Assembly: GCA_031275825.1 (NCBI GenBank)
Contig: JAISOH010000059.1
Span: forward strand, 1-50,693
DNA: 50,693 nucleotides
Direction of reading: 5' to 3'
Source: Prevotellaceae bacterium
Lineage (GTDB): Bacteria > Bacteroidota > Bacteroidia > Bacteroidales > UBA932
In this document: positions 137-39,080 of the stretch, piece by piece
How the letters are laid out: every line of letters starts with the position of its first letter
Position numbering within the stretch: the first letter of the stretch is position 1
Position numbers and translations under genes: made by a program
Notes under the pieces: generated by a model
Told to the model about the DNA's origin: nothing
Databases searched by the model: none
The model's input: only the letters and a program-made list of their open reading frames with translations

Positions 137-1357
137 TCATTCTATAAGCCTTACAAGGTCTTTTTTCATTTCTTCGTCTATATCCCGATACCGGGCAAAT
201 GCTTTACTGCTTTCTGCATGTCCGGTTAATGCTCCTACCAAATTAGGGTCTTTAACCTGTTTGTATATATTGCCTATGAATGTTCTGCGGGCAATGTGAG
301 AACTTGCAATTTCATTCAAGGGTTTTTGTTCGGTTTTGCGCGTGCGCGGATTAATTATTGTAATTTGCCGTGTAATGCCTGCAATGGTGAATATTTTTTT
401 TAATGCTTCGTTGTATTTGACGTCAGATATGAACGGTAATAATTTATTGCTGCCATAATCTTTATATTTGTCTAAAATTCGCATTGCTACTTTATTTAAT
501 GGCACTCTCACTGTTTTTACATGTTCATCTATCGTTTTGCGAGGTATATATTCAATAGCCCCATCTATCAGATTATCTTTTGTGAAATTTATAAGGTCGC
601 TTACCCTGCAACCTGTACAGCAATGGAATATAAATATATCCCTCTGTATTTCAAGATGCGGAAAATTGCTAAAATCGCATTCATATATTTTATTTCGTTC
701 TTCAATAGTCAAATAGTATGGAGTGCCGTACAGGTCAGGAGGTATTGAGAATTTTTCAAACGGATTATTTTTGATATATTCATTCTCGAGAAGCCACCTG
801 AAAAATGTCCTCATTCTTTTCAATATTCCGTTTTTTGTGTTATGTCCTCTTTCTCCATTATCAATAAACATAAAAAAATCTTTAACAAATTCTACGCTGA
901 TATTACGTATGTCTATCTTTAATCTGTTTGCAGTTTCAAATTCTGTCATAAGTTTACACAATCCTCTAAATTGCCTTTCTCTCATGATTTTATATTGTTT
1001 TTTTGAAAGAAAAACATTGAACAAATCCTGTATTTGTTCTGTACGCTCGTGCGATTTGTTAAGCCGTCTGTTTATTTCTGCCGTTAGCAGTTCGGATGTT
1101 GGCTGCGGGAGCGACAAGTAAGATTGCAGTACTGTTGTTTTGCGCTCAAAAATTGCAGCATTTAAGCCAATGCGTTCCTGTGTTGCAATGTAAGCGTAAC
1201 GGGAACTTATGCCCTGCTCTTTTTTACTCCACGCCTTTGTCTTGATTTCGATTTCAGAGGTATAATAAAGTTTTTGTTTGCCTCTGCCCTGCGAAACTTC
1301 AAATCTTACTTTTGTCGTTTCTTTTTTCGATTTAATAAAAGCCGTTACCGTTGCCAT
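137..1357 (-). CDS. tyrosine site-specific recombinase (phage-integrase family)
   Basis: 406-aa ORF. The C-terminal catalytic region has HIARRTF (H-x-x-R), LTGH and a terminal ARY tyrosine. Its start lies about 165 bp from the 3' end of tRNA-Arg. Confidence 0.9.
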   Translation of the reverse strand: MATVTAFIKSKKETTKVRFEVSQGRGKQKLYYTSEIEIKTKAWSKKEQGISSRYAYIATQERIGLNAAIFERKTTVLQSYLSLPQPTSELLTAEINRRLNKSHERTEQIQDLFNVFLSKKQYKIMRERQFRGLCKLMTEFETANRLKIDIRNISVEFVKDFFMFIDNGERGHNTKNGILKRMRTFFRWLLENEYIKNNPFEKFSIPPDLYGTPYYLTIEERNKIYECDFSNFPHLEIQRDIFIFHCCTGCRVSDLINFTKDNLIDGAIEYIPRKTIDEHVKTVRVPLNKVAMRILDKYKDYGSNKLLPFISDVKYNEALKKIFTIAGITRQITIINPRTRKTEQKPLNEIASSHIARRTFIGNIYKQVKDPNLVGALTGHAESSKAFARYRDIDEEMKKDLVRLIE

Positions 1358-4310: not shown

Positions 4311-6167
4311 TTATTCGTTAAATAAATTACCTGTATCTGATTGTTTGATATAACTGTTTTTTGCGACATCGTTTATTTTTTTCTGTATATGAACAACATC
4401 GAAAAAACGGCAAGTTTTTGATACTTTGCATACTTCGCAATCAAAACACACGGGAAACTCATGATATTGAAAAATTTTATCAGGGTCGGATACATCTGCC
4501 ATAACTTCGTTTGCAATATTATCTCCGTACATCCGACCTAAGATATTTTCAATTTCGCTGCATGAATAATTTTTGACATGTTTAAGATAAACATAATCGG
4601 ATATGGCAAAATAATAAGAATATGTTTCGTTTTTGTCCAATAAAAATTCATCCAAATGCTGTTTTGCCTTATCATACTGATTTGAAAAATAAAAAAGTTT
4701 GAATAACAGCAGATTTTCATCAATATTTTGTATATCTTCGTCATCATTATATAAAACATAATCGCATAAGTAGTTTGATGTTTTTTCATGCATACCGACA
4801 TTTGTAACGTGTTCAATTGCATTGGCAAGCGCAAGCGTTTCATGTTTGGTTATTTTTCCAATATGTTTCATATTTGAAAGCGCTCTGAAATCATAGGTAT
4901 GGAACAATTCATAACGGCGATGATATTTAGTTGTCTGGCTAATGCCCGGAATAATAATATAATACGCAGGAAATCCCAATATGGAATTGTTTCTTATGTA
5001 AACGTTATATCCCATTTTTTGTATCAATTCCATGCTGTATTGAATATCTTTTTGATTTGATAATCCAAGTTCAGGATTAAATCCTGTAAATTTGTATGAT
5101 GATGCAGTATGCAAAATAGACCTGTGCCAAAATCCGGTACTGTTTTTAATTATTTTGTTAAAATTTATATCAATGGCAACATCGGACAATATATCGCCTT
5201 CCCAACAGAATTTTAACGGTAATCCTCTGAAATGCTGTCCTTGATAGGCTTCTGTTACACATCTTTCCAGTGCAATATGAGGAACAAAATCAGACCCAAG
5301 TTTAAAATTATATAACAAATTTTGTTTATCTGTAAAAATTACTCCGATTACAGGTATTCCTTTTCCTAAAGAACAGTCTTTTACAATTATTTCATATCCG
5401 GTCTTTTGTTTTATATAATTAATTTTCTCATAAGCATTTGTTCCTTTGAATGTTTCTAATGGAACAGTCGGCGGCGTAAGTTGGTTGTAATATATTTCTG
5501 AAGCAGCATATCGTTCAAATATTTCACAAATACTCTGCAAAATCGCTTCTTCTTCGGTATTTCCTGCCGCCATACCGTTTGAGCCTGTTGCGTATAAAAT
5601 AAGGCGAACAGGAATTAATATTTCCTTATTTTCTGATACGGAATAAGATGGTATCATTAAACTTTCGTTTATTTGCAGTTTATCAATAAAAAAAGTATGT
5701 AAATATGATTCATCTTCTATATTGTATAATTTCATTAATTCTTTGCCCCAATGTTCAATAATCTTGTCGATACTCCAAATTTCCTCTTTCGGGTCGTACA
5801 TAAAATCCAAAGAAGAATTGTTTTGTTTAAGTTTTTGTACGTACAAAGAGTTTTGCGGTAAAGTTTTAATAAAACTATCAGTGGAATAAGCAAGCCGGTG
5901 ATCGCTGAATAATATTCTGTTCTGAATTCTTTCCATAAATTCGGCATAACCGCTTGCCATTGAATATTCAAACGATATTCCTTTGCCATTAGTGCCTATG
6001 TCTAATTTATCCAGATTCCGATTACCTATTATGACACGACAGGAATACATTCCGTTTGTTTCTCGGTGTTGATCTTTTAACAATACGCCAATACCCGAAA
6101 GAATAGATTGAATATTACGTATTGTTTGCTCCGGTGCAGATTCTTTATATTTTTTATATTGTTTCAT
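4311..6167 (-). CDS. YcaO-domain protein, long E. coli-like architecture (module A)
   Basis: 618 aa. YcaO signatures are GTNGKGISFEYSMASGYAEFMERIQN and GSNGMAAGNTEEEAILQSICEIFERYA. The C-terminal half is helical and TPR-like. It ends in a CX2CX2CX5C motif (CFDCEVCKVSKTC). Confidence 0.88.
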   Translation of the reverse strand: MKQYKKYKESAPEQTIRNIQSILSGIGVLLKDQHRETNGMYSCRVIIGNRNLDKLDIGTNGKGISFEYSMASGYAEFMERIQNRILFSDHRLAYSTDSFIKTLPQNSLYVQKLKQNNSSLDFMYDPKEEIWSIDKIIEHWGKELMKLYNIEDESYLHTFFIDKLQINESLMIPSYSVSENKEILIPVRLILYATGSNGMAAGNTEEEAILQSICEIFERYAASEIYYNQLTPPTVPLETFKGTNAYEKINYIKQKTGYEIIVKDCSLGKGIPVIGVIFTDKQNLLYNFKLGSDFVPHIALERCVTEAYQGQHFRGLPLKFCWEGDILSDVAIDINFNKIIKNSTGFWHRSILHTASSYKFTGFNPELGLSNQKDIQYSMELIQKMGYNVYIRNNSILGFPAYYIIIPGISQTTKYHRRYELFHTYDFRALSNMKHIGKITKHETLALANAIEHVTNVGMHEKTSNYLCDYVLYNDDEDIQNIDENLLLFKLFYFSNQYDKAKQHLDEFLLDKNETYSYYFAISDYVYLKHVKNYSCSEIENILGRMYGDNIANEVMADVSDPDKIFQYHEFPVCFDCEVCKVSKTCRFFDVVHIQKKINDVAKNSYIKQSDTGNLFNE

Positions 6168-7683: not shown

Positions 7684-7820
7684 TCAGCTAATTTTCAGGC
7701 ATAGCCTTTCTCCTTTTATTTGACAAAGGTACAAACATGTTTTTTGAAAAAAATACTTTTGGGCGTAAATAAAATTTCACACTTTGTATAATTTTATTTC
7801 ACACTTTCGGGTAGGCGTTT
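7684..7820 (-). promoter_or_regulatory. conserved promoter cassette, copy 1
   Basis: Shared with 18658-18744 and 23092-23230. Elements are the direct repeats ATTTCACACT at 7774-7783 and 7796-7805 (22-bp period), the palindrome AAACATGTTT at 7733-7742, and TACCTTTG on the minus strand (7724-7731), which matches the Bacteroides -7 consensus TAnnTTTG. The conserved 5' leader reads GGCTATGCCTGAAAATTAGC. Confidence 0.7.
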
Positions 7821-14708: not shown

Positions 14709-15854
14709 TCATATTATAAATTGATTAATTTTTAAAATTCTATCCTGTATTTTTGGATGAGTACTGACGCAAAAAGTATATAATGGATGTTTATTGATTT
14801 TAATTAACGAATCATCTTCGATTTTATTTAACAGTGAAATAATCGCATTTTTGTCAATTAAATTAGCGGCATATTTATCTGCGTTATATTCTATTTGACG
14901 CGATATTATGTTTCTCACAACATATAATATCACAATTATAGGTAAAATGTACAGATGAAAATAAATCAAATTAATTATTAAATAAGGCGTTACAAAAATA
15001 TGCTTCATAAACAGTATAAACAATCCAATGAAAATTATTATATAGAAAATATTTTCTATAAGCTGCTTAATATTATCATTATTTTTGTAATGTGCTAATT
15101 CGTGTGCATATAATGCACAAATTTCTTCATTTGAAAAATTACTATTCATTAATCTACTAGAAAATATAACTTTCTTATTATCTCCATGCCCACAAATGCA
15201 AGCGTTTGCAGTCTTACTTTTTAATTCTGACACAAATATTTTTGTCATAACTTTGGCATGTCTGGCAATATCCTCCAATGATTTTTTTAACATTTCATCA
15301 TCTATTTCTTTCGCTTTAATGCCAATTGTTTGTATTTTGTCTTGAAAAATGGTTGTTAGAATTATAAATGCAGACAAAAAAGACAGAAGCAATATGCTTG
15401 AATTATCGTACATATATACAATAATGCAAAAAAATGCAATGCTAAAAGCAATTATAATACCAGATCTTAACGTGTAATCTATTATAAATTTATGCAAATT
15501 TCGTTTTATTTTATATATTTGTGCATCAAATATAATATTTAATATGTTTTTTATTAGCATATATAATCTAATTACAAAAACAATCAAAAACCACAATAAA
15601 ATATTTATTAATAACGAATTATATTTATGTTGAGTAATATTTATTAATAATTTATTATTTATTATAATATAAATAACTACTATAATGGTAAATTTAAATA
15701 ACATTTTGATAAGATACAGACATGAAAATTTACATCGAAAATTTTTCAAATTTAATTGTTTTCCAGTATAGAAATAATTAATAATGTCTGCTACTAAAAC
15801 TAATAATGAAATTATTACAAAATTTATTGTGCTTATCTCATATATTGCTTTCAT
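14709..15854 (-). CDS. M48-family (HtpX/Ste24-like) membrane zinc metallopeptidase
   Basis: 381 aa with multiple TM segments. It has HELAH (HEXXH), then NADKYAA and STHPKIQDRI downstream, as in M48 peptidases. Confidence 0.75.
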   Translation of the reverse strand: MKAIYEISTINFVIISLLVLVADIINYFYTGKQLNLKNFRCKFSCLYLIKMLFKFTIIVVIYIIINNKLLINITQHKYNSLLINILLWFLIVFVIRLYMLIKNILNIIFDAQIYKIKRNLHKFIIDYTLRSGIIIAFSIAFFCIIVYMYDNSSILLLSFLSAFIILTTIFQDKIQTIGIKAKEIDDEMLKKSLEDIARHAKVMTKIFVSELKSKTANACICGHGDNKKVIFSSRLMNSNFSNEEICALYAHELAHYKNNDNIKQLIENIFYIIIFIGLFILFMKHIFVTPYLIINLIYFHLYILPIIVILYVVRNIISRQIEYNADKYAANLIDKNAIISLLNKIEDDSLIKINKHPLYTFCVSTHPKIQDRILKINQFII

Positions 15855-15868
15855 ATTTTCTTATAAAA

Positions 15869-17704
15869 TTATAAAAATTCTTTAAAACAACAATCTTGCT
15901 GCATTTGTGTGTTTATCATATATTTATTTATCCGCTTGGATATTGTAAATTGATGAATAGTTAAACAGTCACTATATAATTTGCATTGTTCACAAGCAGG
16001 ACATTGGGGTAAATCAATATTTGCAAAAAAGGCATCTAAATTTTTAAATCCCTCTGAAATTTCATTAGCTATATTTTTTCCTAAAATTATATTAGCATCA
16101 ATTCCATCTCTTTTTGCTTCTAAAAATATCAGAATATTCTTGTAATAAGTATTTTCTACGTGATTTGTAAGTTGCATAAAGAATTTCATCCAATTAACAG
16201 CATTATGGATGTCATTTAACATGTATAAAAAGGCAACCATAAAATAAGCAATAGGTATGTGATACCAATAAGAATCATGCCTAAATGATAATTTTAATAA
16301 ATCTTTCATTTTTATAAAATCTGTATCCATACCCACATTTTGTATAATATTTGCTATTTTGCGTATTTTATATTGAGAAAGATTTTTACTTGGGAAAAAT
16401 AAATCTTCTATAGTATCAAAATCAACGTAAGAATTGAGAGACACATTATCAGTAGATGCATTTTTTCTTCCTATTGCCGAAATAGTTGGAATATAAATGT
16501 AAAAAGACGGAAAACCAAGGAAAGATACGTTACGCAAATATACATTATATCCATCAACTAAAAAATTATTTATTATCTTTTTAACTTCTTGGTTATATGA
16601 ATCGCCAGAAGAAAAAGTAGAACTATCGAATTCATAAGAATAATTTGTGCCGAATAGTGATATTGGAAATACTCCACTGCCATTCATAATAAACTTTCGT
16701 AATATCTTATCTCTTTGATGGATTGATTGTTCATCAGAATTAATAAAATAATCAAGTTCTTTTTGTGGCACATCTAATAGATTTTCGGCAAAAGTCTTTA
16801 TATCTTTATATCCTTGATAAATTTCGGTTAACGCTCTGCTTAATGCAATAGGAAAAGATGTATCTGACCCAACATTTAATTTATATTTTGTTTTTTCTTT
16901 GTTAATTATAATTACTCCTATTGCAGGTAGATGTTTACCTGCAGAAAAATCTTTAACAATAACATTATAATTTCCATCTTTCTCTATTTCTTTTATTAAC
17001 TTATATTCAGATGGATATTGCTTTATAAAATCAATAGCAATAGTTGGGGGTGTCAATTTTTCAAAATAAACTGTTGATGAGGCATATCGTTCATATAATT
17101 CACATAAACCTTGAAAAACTCCTTCTGATATTGTGTTTCCTGCTGCCATTCCATTTGAGCCTGTAAACATTAGCATAATGTTATATGGTAGATATATTAT
17201 GCTATTGTTCTTTACATCAAAAAACGGGACAGAAATTATTCCGTCATATCCATTCTTTCTGGCTTTATTAAAATAAATTTCTATTTCTTTTTCTGTAAGT
17301 CCATGTTTAAATACATCATCTAAAAATTCTTTAGGTAAATTTTTGAATTCATCTTTTGTCATTATTTTTTCATCCGGAAAAAAAACAAAACCAGTTTCTT
17401 TCTTAATTTGATCTAAAAACATTCTATTGAGAGATGCAGATCCACTCACAAAGCCATTTTGTAAACGTTCTATGAATTCTGCATAAGCACTTGCCAATGC
17501 ATATTGGCGTGTTCTTCCTTTACCGTTTGTTCCAAATTGTCCTCCTGCCGTATCTGCTTCTACTCTTACTGAAAATGTTCCTTCATACGGATTTCCCCAA
17601 TAACTTTCATAAACAAATATATCAAGATTTGCTAATATTGCTCGTATTTTATGAATTGTATTATTTGGAGTATCTTCTTTGTATTTTCTTTTAGTCATAA
17701 TCAT
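15869..17704 (-). CDS. YcaO-domain protein, long E. coli-like architecture (module B)
   Basis: 611 aa. YcaO signatures are GTNGKGRTRQYALASAYAEFIERLQN and GSNGMAAGNTISEGVFQGLCELYERYA. It has a C-terminal CPACEQCKLYSDC (CX2CX2CX5C). Confidence 0.88.
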   Translation of the reverse strand: MIMTKRKYKEDTPNNTIHKIRAILANLDIFVYESYWGNPYEGTFSVRVEADTAGGQFGTNGKGRTRQYALASAYAEFIERLQNGFVSGSASLNRMFLDQIKKETGFVFFPDEKIMTKDEFKNLPKEFLDDVFKHGLTEKEIEIYFNKARKNGYDGIISVPFFDVKNNSIIYLPYNIMLMFTGSNGMAAGNTISEGVFQGLCELYERYASSTVYFEKLTPPTIAIDFIKQYPSEYKLIKEIEKDGNYNVIVKDFSAGKHLPAIGVIIINKEKTKYKLNVGSDTSFPIALSRALTEIYQGYKDIKTFAENLLDVPQKELDYFINSDEQSIHQRDKILRKFIMNGSGVFPISLFGTNYSYEFDSSTFSSGDSYNQEVKKIINNFLVDGYNVYLRNVSFLGFPSFYIYIPTISAIGRKNASTDNVSLNSYVDFDTIEDLFFPSKNLSQYKIRKIANIIQNVGMDTDFIKMKDLLKLSFRHDSYWYHIPIAYFMVAFLYMLNDIHNAVNWMKFFMQLTNHVENTYYKNILIFLEAKRDGIDANIILGKNIANEISEGFKNLDAFFANIDLPQCPACEQCKLYSDCLTIHQFTISKRINKYMINTQMQQDCCFKEFL

Positions 17705-17734
17705 TTAAAATAAGTTATTTAATTGATAATAAAA

Positions 17735-17762
17735 AAATAGGGTACAATATCGTACCCTATTT
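17735..17762 (-). terminator. hairpin plus T-run between the mini-ORFs and YcaO B (attenuator/terminator-like)
   Basis: AAATAGGGTAC (17735-17745) pairs with GTACCCTATTT (17752-17762) around a 6-nt loop. On the minus strand a T7 run follows it. Confidence 0.6.
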
Positions 17763-17773
17763 ATACTCTCAAC

Positions 17774-17890
17774 TTAGATTACAGATCTGTTTTGGAAATG
17801 AAAATAAGCCGGCGCAGCACTTGCTGCCATTAAAAGTAAGATAGGTACAGCAGCGACTTCATGTTCTTCTTCTTGTGTAAAATACTTCAT
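17774..17890 (-). CDS. mini-ORF B1 (38 aa), candidate precursor peptide or small membrane peptide
   Basis: Below the ORF-track cutoff. It reads MKYFTQEEEHEVAAVPILLLMAASAAPAYFHFQNRSVI and is a paralog of B2. Confidence 0.55.
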   Translation of the reverse strand: MKYFTQEEEHEVAAVPILLLMAASAAPAYFHFQNRSVI

Positions 17891-17945
17891 GATTTTGATT
17901 TTTAAAAAATTAAACATTAATAGATAATATAAGACCCCAAAGAAA

Positions 17946-18059
17946 TTATATCAAACTACGATTTTCATGAAAAAGAAGGAATCGTAATAAGGTAGCTAAA
18001 ATTGGAGCTAAATTTAATTCTTCATTTGAAGAATCCTCATAATTTGTAAAATACTTCAT
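17946..18059 (-). CDS. mini-ORF B2 (37 aa), paralog of B1
   Basis: It reads MKYFTNYEDSSNEELNLAPILATLLRFLLFHENRSLI. With B1 it shares the MKYFT start, an acidic stretch, a hydrophobic centre and an FH-x-NRS-(V/L)-I end. Confidence 0.55.
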   Translation of the reverse strand: MKYFTNYEDSSNEELNLAPILATLLRFLLFHENRSLI

Positions 18060-18179
18060 AACTTTGAAATTTTAATTTATTAAACATTTTATTAATTTTA
18101 TAAAAGCAATTTTCATCGCTCTTATTGATAGCGAAGTAAGTAATTAAATCTTTACAATCTATCAGATGTGTTCAACTAT

Positions 18180-18231
18180 CTAATAAGTGACAGATTTGAA
18201 CTAATAAGTGATAGACTTTTACAAATAAGTG
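18180..18231 (-). promoter_or_regulatory. three direct repeats at an exact 21-bp period upstream of the mini-ORFs
   Basis: On the plus strand: CTAATAAGTG at 18180-18189, CTAATAAGTG at 18201-18210 and CAAATAAGTG at 18222-18231. They lie 120-170 bp upstream of the B2 ATG. Confidence 0.6.
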
Positions 18232-18235
18232 TTTT

Positions 18236-18585
18236 TTATATCAGTTCAACAAAATGTTTTTTGAACTCTATCCACTTTCTGTCAGATACTTTCAGTTTTA
18301 TATTATTTGTGAGTAATATTTCCTTTTTTCTATTGTTAACTTGCTGTATGTATCTGGCATTAACCAAAGTATTATGATGTATTCTAATGAAACCATAAGT
18401 TGCAAGTTCGTTTTCAAAAGATTTTAAAAGTTTTGAACAAGTAATCCTGTCTTCTTTATCAATATATATATATCGCACAGGTAACAATCAGATATTATAT
18501 ACGTTATATTTATTGCCATAAGTTGACGAGTAATGCCGCCTGTTGTAACAACAATAGATTTTGTATTTTGTAAATCATAGTTCAT
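18236..18585 (-). pseudogene. standalone LytTR-domain DNA-binding protein, frame broken at an (AT)6 tract
   Basis: The upstream frame from ATG 18585 reads MNYDLQNTKSIVVTTGGITRQLMAINITYIISDCYLCDIYI.... The track ORF (18236-18487) reads ...YIDKEDRITCSKLLKSFENELATYGFIRIHHNTLVNARYIQQV..., which is LytTR-like (FxRxHxS/TxxVN). Deleting one AT from (AT)6 at 18462-18473 fuses them into a 115-aa protein. Confidence 0.7.
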
Positions 18586-18657: not shown

Positions 18658-18744
18658 TACAAAGGTAAAAACATGTTTTTCAAAAAAACACTTTTTGGCG
18701 TAAATAAAATTTCACACTGTGTATAATTTTATTTCACACTTTCG
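18658..18744 (-). promoter_or_regulatory. conserved promoter cassette, copy 2 (upstream of the LytTR gene)
   Basis: ATTTCACACT at 18709-18718 and 18731-18740, palindrome at 18669-18678, and the -7 box CAAAGGTA (plus strand) at 18660-18667. Confidence 0.7.
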
Positions 18745-18992
18745 GCATAACCGCTTGCCATTGAATATTCTATGCTCGTTCCTTTGCCATTAGTGCCTAT
18801 ATCAAATTCCATTAAGTTATCATTAGCGATTACAATTCTACAAGTAAAATAATCACCATCTTGTATAAATTTTTCGGATACAAATATACCAAGTTCACTC
18901 AGTATAGAACGAATTTTGTTTATAGTAATTACCGGCTTTTCTTCTTTATACGGTTTTAACATCTTATTCATACCATTATATTTTAAATCCAT
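18729..18992 (-). pseudogene. YcaO N-terminal stub (about 85 codons), truncated at the junction with promoter cassette copy 2
   Basis: It reads ...INKIRSILSELGIF...DIGTNGKGTSIEYSMASGYAE and then runs into cassette sequence (SVK*). The DNA around 18743-18810 closely matches YcaO A at 5940-6000. Confidence 0.8.
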
Positions 18993-23091: not shown

Positions 23092-23230
23092 GCTAATTTT
23101 CAGGCATAGCCTTTTTCCTTTTTTATTTTTTCACAAAGGTACAAACATGTTTTTCAAAAAAAATGCTTTTTGGCGTAAATAAAATTTCACACTATGTATA
23201 ATTTTATTTCACACTTTTACGTAAGCGTTT
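23092..23230 (-). promoter_or_regulatory. conserved promoter cassette, copy 3
   Basis: ATTTCACACT at 23184-23193 and 23206-23215, palindrome at 23143-23152, and the -7 box at 23134-23141. Confidence 0.7.
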
Positions 23231-23235
23231 ATTAT

Positions 23236-23505
23236 TCAGTTGAATATATCATAATAAGCATACAAGTCAGAAAATTCGGAATCTTCGGGAAATTTTTCTT
23301 TTTCCTTAAAATGTTTAAAGAAATTATAATCCAATACCTTTGATATTTGCAGCAGCAATGCAGTATCAATGCTCGAACGCTTAAAAATATCATAAACATT
23401 TTCGCGTGTTTTATTGATTAGCCTTGCAAATTCGGTAACAGTAAGAGAACTTTGATTTACCTTTTGCCGTATAAGGTTGCCTATGTGAACTTCATTTTTT
23501 TTCAT
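23236..23505 (-). CDS. small XRE-type helix-turn-helix protein
   Basis: 89 aa. LTVTEFARLINKTRENVYDIFKRSSID is an HTH-like stretch. The gene heads the whole minus-strand locus. Confidence 0.7.
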   Translation of the reverse strand: MKKNEVHIGNLIRQKVNQSSLTVTEFARLINKTRENVYDIFKRSSIDTALLLQISKVLDYNFFKHFKEKEKFPEDSEFSDLYAYYDIFN

Positions 23506-38062: not shown

Positions 38063-38124
<62 letters not shown>

Positions 38125-38348: not shown

Positions 38349-39080
38349 ATGGCAACAATTTTACACAAAATCAAGGCGTATTTGTACAGCAATGCGCTGA
38401 CCGACAACCCTAACGACTATATTGCGAGGGTAAGTTCGGAACGCTCGCTGAGCGTAAATGACATTTGCGAATCGGCAATAACGCGCGGCGGCGCTGATAT
38501 TTCGGCTGCGGCTATGGAACACGCCGTAAACCTGTGGCTTAAAGAAATGGGTTACCGTCTTTGCGACGGATTTTCGATTAATACGGGCTGGTTTACGGCG
38601 AGCACCCACATCAAAGGCGTGTTTGACAGTCCAAACGAACATTTTGACCCCGAAAAACACACTGTCCTGTTTGAGTTTCAGCAGGGCTCGCTTCTGCGCA
38701 GGGAACTTGAATCAATAAGCGTGGACATACTCGGAGTTGCCGATTCGGCTCTGCGCATTTTGCAGGTTACGGATGTCAAAACAGGCTCGGTGAACGACAT
38801 CCTCACGCCCGACCGCAACCTCAAAATCAGCGGTAACAAAATCAAAATTGCGGGCGACAATGCGGCTAACGGCGTGTACTTTGTAAACCAAACCACGCAG
38901 GAACGCACTGCCGTAGATGCTTCGGACATCGTAACAAACAACCCTTCGGAGTTGATAATTGTGATTCCCGCGCTGACGGCGGGAACGTATTCGCTGGAGA
39001 TTGCAACGCAGTATGCGGTAGGCGCCTTACTGAAAGAGCCAAGAACGGCAATCTTCGACAAACCTCTGACGGTACAGTGA
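38349..39080 (+). CDS. Bacteroidota HU-like DNA-binding N-domain plus Ig-like (DUF4469-type) C-domain protein
   Basis: 243 aa. I recall the N-terminus MATILHKIKAYLYSNALTDNPNDYIARVSSERSLSVNDICESAITRGGADISAAAMEHAVNL from this family. The C-terminal part LKISGNKIKIAGDNAANGVYFVNQTT...PSELIIVIPALTAGTYSLEI fits the Ig-like domain. GC is clearly higher than in neighbouring genes. Confidence 0.65.
   Translation: MATILHKIKAYLYSNALTDNPNDYIARVSSERSLSVNDICESAITRGGADISAAAMEHAVNLWLKEMGYRLCDGFSINTGWFTASTHIKGVFDSPNEHFDPEKHTVLFEFQQGSLLRRELESISVDILGVADSALRILQVTDVKTGSVNDILTPDRNLKISGNKIKIAGDNAANGVYFVNQTTQERTAVDASDIVTNNPSELIIVIPALTAGTYSLEIATQYAVGALLKEPRTAIFDKPLTVQ

What the first reader, a model, noticed from the sequence alone, without database searches (positions are those of the whole stretch)
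18236..18585. Standalone LytTR regulator gene is out of frame at an (AT)6 dinucleotide tract
The N-terminal 41 codons (from 18585) and the LytTR-domain body (to 18236) are in different frames. Deleting one AT unit from (AT)6 at 18462-18473 yields a continuous 115-aa protein, ...ITYIISDCYLCDIYIDKEDRITCSKLLKSFENELATYGFIRIHHNTLVNARYIQQV.... There is no receiver domain, and no histidine kinase lies in the window.

A dinucleotide tract inside the putative master regulator of the locus is a plausible slipped-strand phase switch. It could equally be a decay lesion or an assembly error.
Basis: seen in the sequence. Interest (0 to 1): 0.6.

Follow-up and report, generated by a model that had tools for sequence, protein, structure and literature searches.

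The report
Frameshifted LytTR regulator at AT repeat
A small DNA-binding regulator that should switch on a neighbouring peptide-antibiotic-like gene cluster is broken by one extra AT unit in a short AT repeat. This looks like a recent, ordinary slippage mutation in a decaying locus, not a built-in on/off switch.

Summary
An (AT)6 tract at 18462-18473 splits a minus-strand gene into a 41-codon N-part and a 77-codon C-part (Pfam LytTR positions 23-97 of 98). One AT unit fewer gives a 115-aa protein, collinear with 16 intact stand-alone LytTR proteins (113-121 aa) found almost only in this genus.

Each family member, this one included, is followed by 21-bp-phased CACTTATT repeats and a peptide operon. 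The repeats match the published BrsR operator, so this is the local activator of the YcaO module downstream, not master of the whole locus.

A maintained phase switch is not supported:
- Relatives encode the same D-I/V-Y-I motif with codons that break the tract.
- AT tracts in the genome fall off geometrically, with no enrichment.
- Six units is below published dinucleotide cut-offs.
- The closest orthologues in two sister species are destroyed by other lesions.
- The island also holds a truncated YcaO.

The break is recent: dN/dS is about 0.16 in both halves, there are no further stops, and operator and operon are intact. Assembly error and real reversibility need reads and cannot be excluded.

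Earlier notes from this scan on this window had already recorded the operator and that the regulator gene is broken.

The parts
18236..18585 (-). Frameshifted stand-alone LytTR regulator gene; 115 aa if the tract were (AT)5
   Evidence: The halves are collinear with 16 intact family members.
18462..18473 (.). (AT)6 tract, site of the +2-nt frame break. It is formed by the codons for D-I-Y-I.
   Evidence: It is the only (AT) tract of 6 or more units inside a coding frame in the genome.
18463..18585 (-). N-part: 41 native codons, covering strands beta1-beta4 of the LytTR fold
   Evidence: Alignment. Strands at residues 9-15, 18-24, 29-31 and 39-41 in the model of the G004 homologue. 76% nt identity to the nearest intact homologue.
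18236..18469 (-). C-part: 77 codons plus stop, the LytTR body in the other frame
   Evidence: Pfam LytTR positions 23-97 of 98, E 3.9e-13. 74% nt identity to the same homologue.
18182..18231 (-). Three CACTTATT direct repeats at an exact 21-bp period, directly after the stop codon; putative operator of this regulator
   Evidence: The same arrangement follows 13 of 17 family copies. It matches the BrsR operator ACCACTTAT-12 bp-ACCGCTTAT in Table 2 of PMC6193735.
18709..18740 (-). AGTGTGAAAT-N12-AGTGTGAAAT repeat of the promoter cassette upstream of the LytTR gene. Other copies lie at 7774-7805 and 23184-23215.
17774..18059 (-). Two small peptide ORFs between the operator and YcaO B; presumed targets of activation
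Evidence: Their position downstream of the operator is shown.
15869..17704 (-). Intact YcaO (module B), followed by an M48 peptidase and ABC transporter genes
   Evidence: YcaO profile 1-324 of 325, M48 4-183 of 186, ABC_tran.
18729..18992 (-). 87-aa N-terminal remnant of another YcaO, cut off where the promoter cassette begins
   Evidence: 52% identity to residues 2-76 of the YcaO at 4311-6167. No Pfam hit.
23236..23505 (-). 89-aa ORF with an HTH-like sequence but no Pfam hit, at the head of the island next to cassette copy 3
   Evidence: Its homologue sits upstream of the cassette in G002. No Pfam hit for the G002 copy.

Best explanation
The gene is a genuine member of a genus-restricted family of receiver-less LytTR proteins of about 115 aa.

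**What the intact protein would do (inferred).** It binds the three 21-bp-phased CACTTATT repeats directly after its own stop codon. From there it activates the promoter of the two small peptide genes and the YcaO / M48 peptidase / ABC transporter operon.

**What happened here.** The codons GAT-ATA-TAT-ATT (D-I-Y-I) formed an (AT)5 run. Replication slippage added one unit, so translation stops after 53 codons. The fold is cut inside strand beta4, and the allele is a null.

**Most likely status.** This is a recent, ordinary loss-of-function slippage mutation in a regulator lineage and island that are being eroded across the genus. Loss may be tolerated, or even favoured, because producing the peptide is costly. 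An intact paralogue on another contig, whose operator has the same core, might also cover for it.

Shown here: the frame break, family membership, conservation of the operator, and the lesions in sister genomes. Inferred: DNA binding, activation, and the origin by slippage.
For: **Break sits exactly in the tract.**

**Family membership.** LytTR domain. 16 intact copies of 113-121 aa; 9 of 10 genus genomes hold the family. The predicted fold of a homologue matches AgrA and ComE LytTR domains over 102-113 columns.

**Operator.** It is conserved after 13 of 17 copies and equals the BrsR repeat.

**Tract is not a conserved feature.** It is absent from the relatives' codons. AT tracts are not enriched. 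About 12 (AT)5 tracts sit intact in long ORFs.

**Other lesions in the same lineage and family.**
- In G002, homology ends inside the tract and unrelated genes on the opposite strand follow.
- In G007, a 3.7-kb deletion fuses codon 15 to the M48 C-terminus.
- G008 has two N-terminal remnants.
- The window has a truncated YcaO next door.

**Recent event.**
- dN/dS is 0.16 against the nearest homologue: 0.24 in the N-part and 0.12 in the C-part.
- Only 2 of 21 otherwise-invariant columns are changed, against 0-3 in intact members.

**Not a chimera.** Both halves are nearest to the same homologue.

**Possible back-up.** The intact paralogue on C52 has a CACTTATT/CCGCTTATT operator.
Against: - There are no reads and no same-species genomes, so neither the tract length in the population nor its stability is known.
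- The gene has no second lesion, and the operator and operon are intact. That pattern is also what a reversible OFF state or an assembly error would give.
- The window copy carries H29Y at a family-invariant histidine. This hints at relaxation but is within the range of intact members.
Confidence: 0.6

Rival explanations
1. Slipped-strand phase variation. The tract is a contingency switch that toggles the regulator, and so the peptide operon, between ON at (AT)5 or (AT)8 and OFF at (AT)6 or (AT)7. Switching would occur at a selected, elevated rate.
For: - The break is exactly one repeat unit.
- Both halves are otherwise pristine and under long-term purifying selection.
- The operator and operon are intact.
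- There is a precedent in a LytTR regulator: reversible poly(A) changes in agrA give revertible Agr-negative variants (PMC6686034).
- In G002 the same tract is also a breakpoint, so it is a fragile spot.
Against: - The tract is not conserved in any of 16 intact relatives.
- AT tracts fall off geometrically in the genome, with no phasome-like enrichment.
- Six dinucleotide units is the detection floor and below the cut-off of 8 or more in PMC5953494. That study saw no length changes at dinucleotide tracts.
- The orthologues in sister species are lost irreversibly.
Confidence: 0.15
2. Assembly or consensus artefact. The organism really carries (AT)5 and an intact 115-aa gene, or the population is mixed and the assembler picked one allele.
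For: - The genome is a draft of 202 contigs, 85% complete.
- The gene has no other defect.
- There is no independent copy of this sequence in public data to confirm it.
Against: - Frame-switch signatures at 2540 homopolymer sites (1.77%) equal the rate at random positions (1.56%), so the assembly is not indel-ridden.
- A 58-bp (AC)29 tract was assembled on the same contig.
- That 12-bp dinucleotide runs are not a usual error site for short-read assemblies is my own knowledge.
Confidence: 0.17
3. Recoding. Full-length protein is made from the (AT)6 template by a ribosomal shift on the repeat, or by RNA polymerase slippage. A +2 slip of tRNA-Tyr or tRNA-Ile would re-pair perfectly.
For: A 2-nt slip on a dinucleotide repeat restores identical codons and would give the family sequence. 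This comes from reading the sequence.
Against: - There is no X-XXY-YYZ heptamer in the shift zone 18427-18487.
- No relative uses a shifted arrangement; all 16 are single ORFs.
- That +2 shifts and dinucleotide transcriptional slippage are not known as programmed events in bacteria is my own knowledge.
Confidence: 0.03

Closest known systems
agrA frameshift and poly(A) variants of Staphylococcus aureus (PMC6686034)
   Same: A LytTR-domain activator of a secreted-peptide regulon is switched off by a slippage indel in a short repeat inside its coding sequence. The mutants carry single lesions, and some revert.
   Different: - AgrA has a receiver domain and a kinase partner.
- Its repeat is a homopolymer, not a dinucleotide.
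- Reversion was measured there and nothing is measured here.
- The organism here is an uncultured member of the Bacteroidales. Homologues carry the source label 'Prevotellaceae bacterium'.
LytTR Regulatory Systems: HdrR/HdrM and BrsR/BrsM of Streptococcus mutans (PMC6193735)
   Same: - A receiver-less LytTR protein.
- 9-bp direct repeats with 12-bp spacers just upstream of a promoter, with a repeat sequence almost identical to the BrsR site.
- Control of bacteriocin-like peptide genes.
- Paralogues with overlapping operator cores.
   Different: - There is no membrane-inhibitor gene after the regulator.
- The repeats lie downstream of the regulator gene, in front of the target operon. They are not upstream of its own operon, so there is no evident positive autoregulation.
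- There are three repeats rather than two.
SSR contingency loci of Neisseria, Haemophilus and Campylobacter (PMC5953494, PMC6321876)
   Same: An intragenic repeat whose unit number sets the reading frame.
   Different: - The tract is short (6 units) and not conserved among homologues.
- It is not part of an SSR-rich genome.
- No length polymorphism has been observed.

Membership tests
LytTR DNA-binding domain (Pfam PF04397) | Sequence match to the domain profile above the curated cut-off | tested here: met
   The C-part scores 49.9 bits against a cut-off of 22.6 and covers profile positions 23-97 of 98. The missing first 22 positions correspond to the N-part in the other frame.
LytTR DNA-binding domain (Pfam PF04397) | All-beta LytTR fold as in AgrA and ComE | tested here: met
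   Tested on the intact G004 homologue, not the window gene. The model has pLDDT 73. The top 11 PDB matches are all LytTR domains, TM 0.52-0.64.
LytTR DNA-binding domain (Pfam PF04397) | Binds paired 9-bp direct repeats spaced 12 bp apart | not testable with these tools
   Such repeats are present and conserved next to the gene, but binding itself was not assayed.
LytTR Regulatory System (regulator plus membrane inhibitor) | Stand-alone LytTR protein without a receiver domain | tested here: met
   The family length is 113-121 aa, a single domain.
LytTR Regulatory System (regulator plus membrane inhibitor) | Gene for a transmembrane inhibitor directly downstream in the same operon | tested here: not met
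   In the window and in 13 of 17 family copies, the operator repeats follow the stop codon; where the flank was read on (window, G004, G001), a small peptide gene comes next.
LytTR Regulatory System (regulator plus membrane inhibitor) | Own operator upstream of its own promoter (positive autoregulation) | tested here: not met
   The upstream repeat is AGTGTGAAAT, shared with the precursor promoters. The CACTTATT repeats occur only downstream.
AgrA/ComE-type two-component response regulator | N-terminal receiver domain and a cognate histidine kinase | tested here: not met
   There is no receiver in the 115-aa frame. No kinase was found in the scanned ORFs of the window.
SSR contingency (phase-variable) gene | Repeat tract retained among homologues or orthologues | tested here: not met
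   The relatives use GAT-GTA-TAT-ATC, GAT-ATT-TAT-ATT and similar codons.
SSR contingency (phase-variable) gene | Tract length in the hypermutable range | tested here: not met
   The tract has 6 units. PMC5953494 uses 8 or more for dinucleotides, with 6 as the detection floor.
SSR contingency (phase-variable) gene | Repeat-number polymorphism within or between strains | not testable with these tools
   No reads are available. No same-species sequence turned up in the protein collection or the metagenome contigs.

The most novel reading that the evidence does not exclude
The AT tract is a true reversible switch. A gut Bacteroidales lineage would use it to bet-hedge production of a YcaO-modified peptide by toggling a receiver-less LytTR activator. 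This would be a dinucleotide-repeat contingency locus in a phylum where phase variation is known mainly from DNA inversions.
Probability: 0.12. Interest if true: 0.5.

Novelty: new member of a known kind. Interest (0 to 1): 0.25.

Why it matters
On the evidence here the module B peptide operon probably lacks its dedicated activator in this genome. Anyone mining the cluster should therefore expect it to be silent unless the paralogue substitutes.

Across the genus, this regulator lineage is the part of the island that breaks: by frameshift, by truncation and by deletion. That fits the general pattern that regulators of costly secreted peptides are lost first.

If reads showed mixed tract lengths, it would become a rare example of dinucleotide-repeat switching in Bacteroidales. 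Without that, it is an ordinary frameshift.

Tried and rejected
**Looking for other strains to compare tract length.**
- The protein collection gave 4 hits; none near-identical from another sample.
- An exact-flank pattern scan of metagenome contigs gave 0 hits.
- A protein-guided scan of metagenome contigs gave only relatives of 33-39% identity.
- The genus holds only 11 genomes.

**Chimera hypothesis** (N-part and C-part joined by recombination at the tract). Rejected: both halves are nearest to the same homologue, at 76% and 74% nt identity.

**Indel-ridden assembly.** Rejected: the frame-switch signature at homopolymers equals the random background.

**Canonical -1 frameshift site.** None is present in the shift zone (read).

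**AGTGTGAAAT cassette as this regulator's operator.** Set aside. The repeat conserved next to family members is CACTTATT, and the intact paralogue on C52 has no AGTGTGAAAT box upstream.

**Not done.** The mended 115-aa sequence was not folded. An intact homologue was folded instead.

Full report
**1. Observation**

On the minus strand the gene starts at ATG 18585. It reads 41 codons that look like the start of a LytTR protein and then enters GCG-(AT)6-TGATAAAG, with the tract at 18462-18473. In that frame 12 aberrant codons and a stop follow, giving a 53-aa ORF at 18424-18585.

The frame that ends at 18236 holds the rest of the domain. Pfam LytTR (PF04397) matches it at E 3.9e-13, covering profile positions 23-97 of 98. 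Deleting one AT unit gives a 115-aa ORF, and adding two units gives 117 aa.

When both pieces are aligned with intact relatives they abut at CDIYI|DKEDRITC. The tract encodes the shared I-Y-I in both frames, so the 2-nt excess lies in the tract and nowhere else.

**2. What the gene is**

A family-wide genome search found the protein almost only in the window's own genus. Nine of the 10 other genus genomes have it, with 16 intact copies of 113-121 aa; outside the genus there are only weak matches. A source label on two homologues reads 'LytTR family transcriptional regulator, Prevotellaceae bacterium'.

The model of the nearest intact homologue (pLDDT 73) has a single beta-rich domain. Its best 11 matches among solved structures are all LytTR domains: AgrA, ComE and 3d6w. 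There is no receiver domain. The Pfam scans of the window's larger ORFs found no histidine kinase.

**3. Its cis element and likely job**

Directly after the stop codon lie three CACTTATT repeats at an exact 21-bp period, at 18231-18224, 18210-18203 and 18189-18182. They are followed by two small peptide ORFs, an intact YcaO, an M48 peptidase and ABC transporter genes.

The same three-repeat array follows 13 of 17 family copies, with core (A/C)CACTTATT or a CCGGTT variant. It always sits between the regulator gene and the next promoter. In this genome the array occurs only here and after the intact paralogue on contig C52.

The repeat is nearly the same as the published operator of the stand-alone LytTR regulator BrsR, ACCACTTAT-12 bp-ACCGCTTAT (PMC6193735, Table 2). 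I therefore infer that the protein binds these repeats and activates the module B operon.

The other repeat pair, AGTGTGAAAT-N12-AGTGTGAAAT, is a different sequence. It sits in a roughly 90-bp cassette found three times in the window: before two GG-leader precursors and before the LytTR gene. The intact paralogue has no such box. So the LytTR protein is a second-tier, local activator, not the master regulator of the whole island.

**4. Switch, decay or error?**

*Against a maintained switch:*
- None of the intact relatives has the tract. They encode D-I/V-Y-I with codons such as GAT-GTA-TAT-ATC or GAT-ATT-TAT-ATT.
- AT tracts in the 2.46-Mb genome number 206, 26, 3 and 1 for 4, 5, 6 and 8 units. 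This is a plain geometric fall.
- About a dozen (AT)5 tracts sit intact in long ORFs, and this is the only tract of 6 or more units inside a coding frame.
- Six units is the detection floor and below the cut-off of 8 or more used for dinucleotides in a Neisseria phasome study. That study also saw no length changes at dinucleotide tracts (PMC5953494).

*For decay:*
- The two sister species with the closest orthologous DNA have each lost the gene in another way.
- In G002 (88% identity), homology stops inside the tract after (AT)4A. An unrelated region with a peptidase gene on the other strand follows.
- In G007 (96-98% identity), a 3.7-kb deletion fuses codon 15 to the C-terminus of the M48 peptidase.
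- G008 carries two N-terminal remnants.
- In the window, the ORF just upstream is the first 76 residues of another YcaO, cut off at the promoter cassette.

*The lesion is recent:*
- In the read-through frame, dN/dS against the nearest homologue is 0.16: 0.24 in the N-part and 0.12 in the C-part.
- Only 2 of 21 otherwise-invariant columns differ (H29Y and K46R), against 0-3 in intact members.
- Both halves are nearest to the same homologue, so the gene is not a recombinant joint.

*Assembly error:*
- The genome is a draft of 202 contigs, 85% complete.
- Frame-switch signatures at homopolymers (1.77%) equal those at random positions (1.56%).
- A 58-bp (AC)29 tract was assembled on the same contig.
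- An artefact is possible but not favoured.

No reads and no same-species sequences could be found. The decisive test was therefore out of reach.

**5. Mechanism, with odds**

| Reading | Odds |
|---|---|
| One-unit replication slippage in a chance (AT)5 run made a null allele; tolerated or favoured | about 0.6 |
| Assembly or consensus artefact | about 0.17 |
| Selected reversible switch | about 0.15 |
| Recoding on the repeat | about 0.03 |

In the leading reading, the break falls in strand beta4 of the fold, so neither piece can form the domain. The allele would be tolerated or favoured because the peptide is costly. It might also be tolerated because the C52 paralogue, whose operator has the same core, can substitute (substitution is inferred).

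The slip is reversible in principle, as for the agrA poly(A) variants (PMC6686034). Nothing here shows that reversal is frequent or selected.

**6. Comparison with known systems**

- It works like a stand-alone LytTR activator of bacteriocin-type genes (HdrR, BrsR). It fails two defining features of the LytTR Regulatory System: there is no membrane-inhibitor gene downstream, and its own operator is not upstream of its own promoter.
- It is not an AgrA/ComE-type response regulator, because it has no receiver.
- As a lesion, it resembles the slippage frameshifts of agrA.

**7. Verdict**

The feature is real, and the event is ordinary: a recent frameshift in a short repeat, within a locus undergoing erosion. 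Earlier notes of this scan on the same window had already described the operator and remarked that the regulator is broken. I re-derived the operator independently before reading them.

Noticed in passing
window 38065-38122: An (AC)29 tract of 58 bp, by far the longest simple repeat in the 2.46-Mb genome. It lies about 230 bp upstream of an HU-DNA_bdg/DUF4469 gene (38349-39080). It is a much better candidate for repeat-length variation than the (AT)6 tract.
   Followed up: partly
L008:1400-1760 (G007:C12): A sister species carries a 3.7-kb deletion relative to window 14842-18541. It fuses codon 15 of the LytTR gene in frame to the last 43 residues of the M48 peptidase and removes YcaO B and both peptide genes.
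   Followed up: partly
L007:1780-1800 and L051 (G002:C211): Homology to the window ends inside the same AT tract, after (AT)4A. Sequence with inverted-repeat-like ends and a gene on the other strand that reads like an Xaa-Pro aminopeptidase (by eye, not scanned) follow. So the tract is a rearrangement breakpoint in a second species.
   Followed up: partly
L039:1-420 and L050:1-420 (G008:C103, C9): Two near-identical copies of a LytTR N-terminal remnant of about 32 codons, fused to unrelated sequence, both about 190-260 bp from the low-coordinate end of their contigs. This may be a repeated element.
   Followed up: no
window 18131-18143 (minus strand): At the place where relatives have a TACTTTG promoter-like motif downstream of the operator, the window reads TTACTTACTTCG. 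This may be a 4-nt duplication or a substitution in the -7 box, and so perhaps a second lesion. No orthologue is available for comparison.
   Followed up: no
window 18499-18501 (codon 29): The window copy has Tyr where all 16 intact family members, and the G002 remnant, have His in the motif I-T/S-H-I/V.
   Followed up: partly
L038/L022 (G005:C392:2062-2805): Two family members lie in tandem, 70 bp apart, without the CACTTATT array after them.
   Followed up: no
window 137-1357: A tyrosine-integrase gene lies at the downstream end of the three tandem peptide-modification modules, which suggests the island is or was mobile.
   Followed up: no
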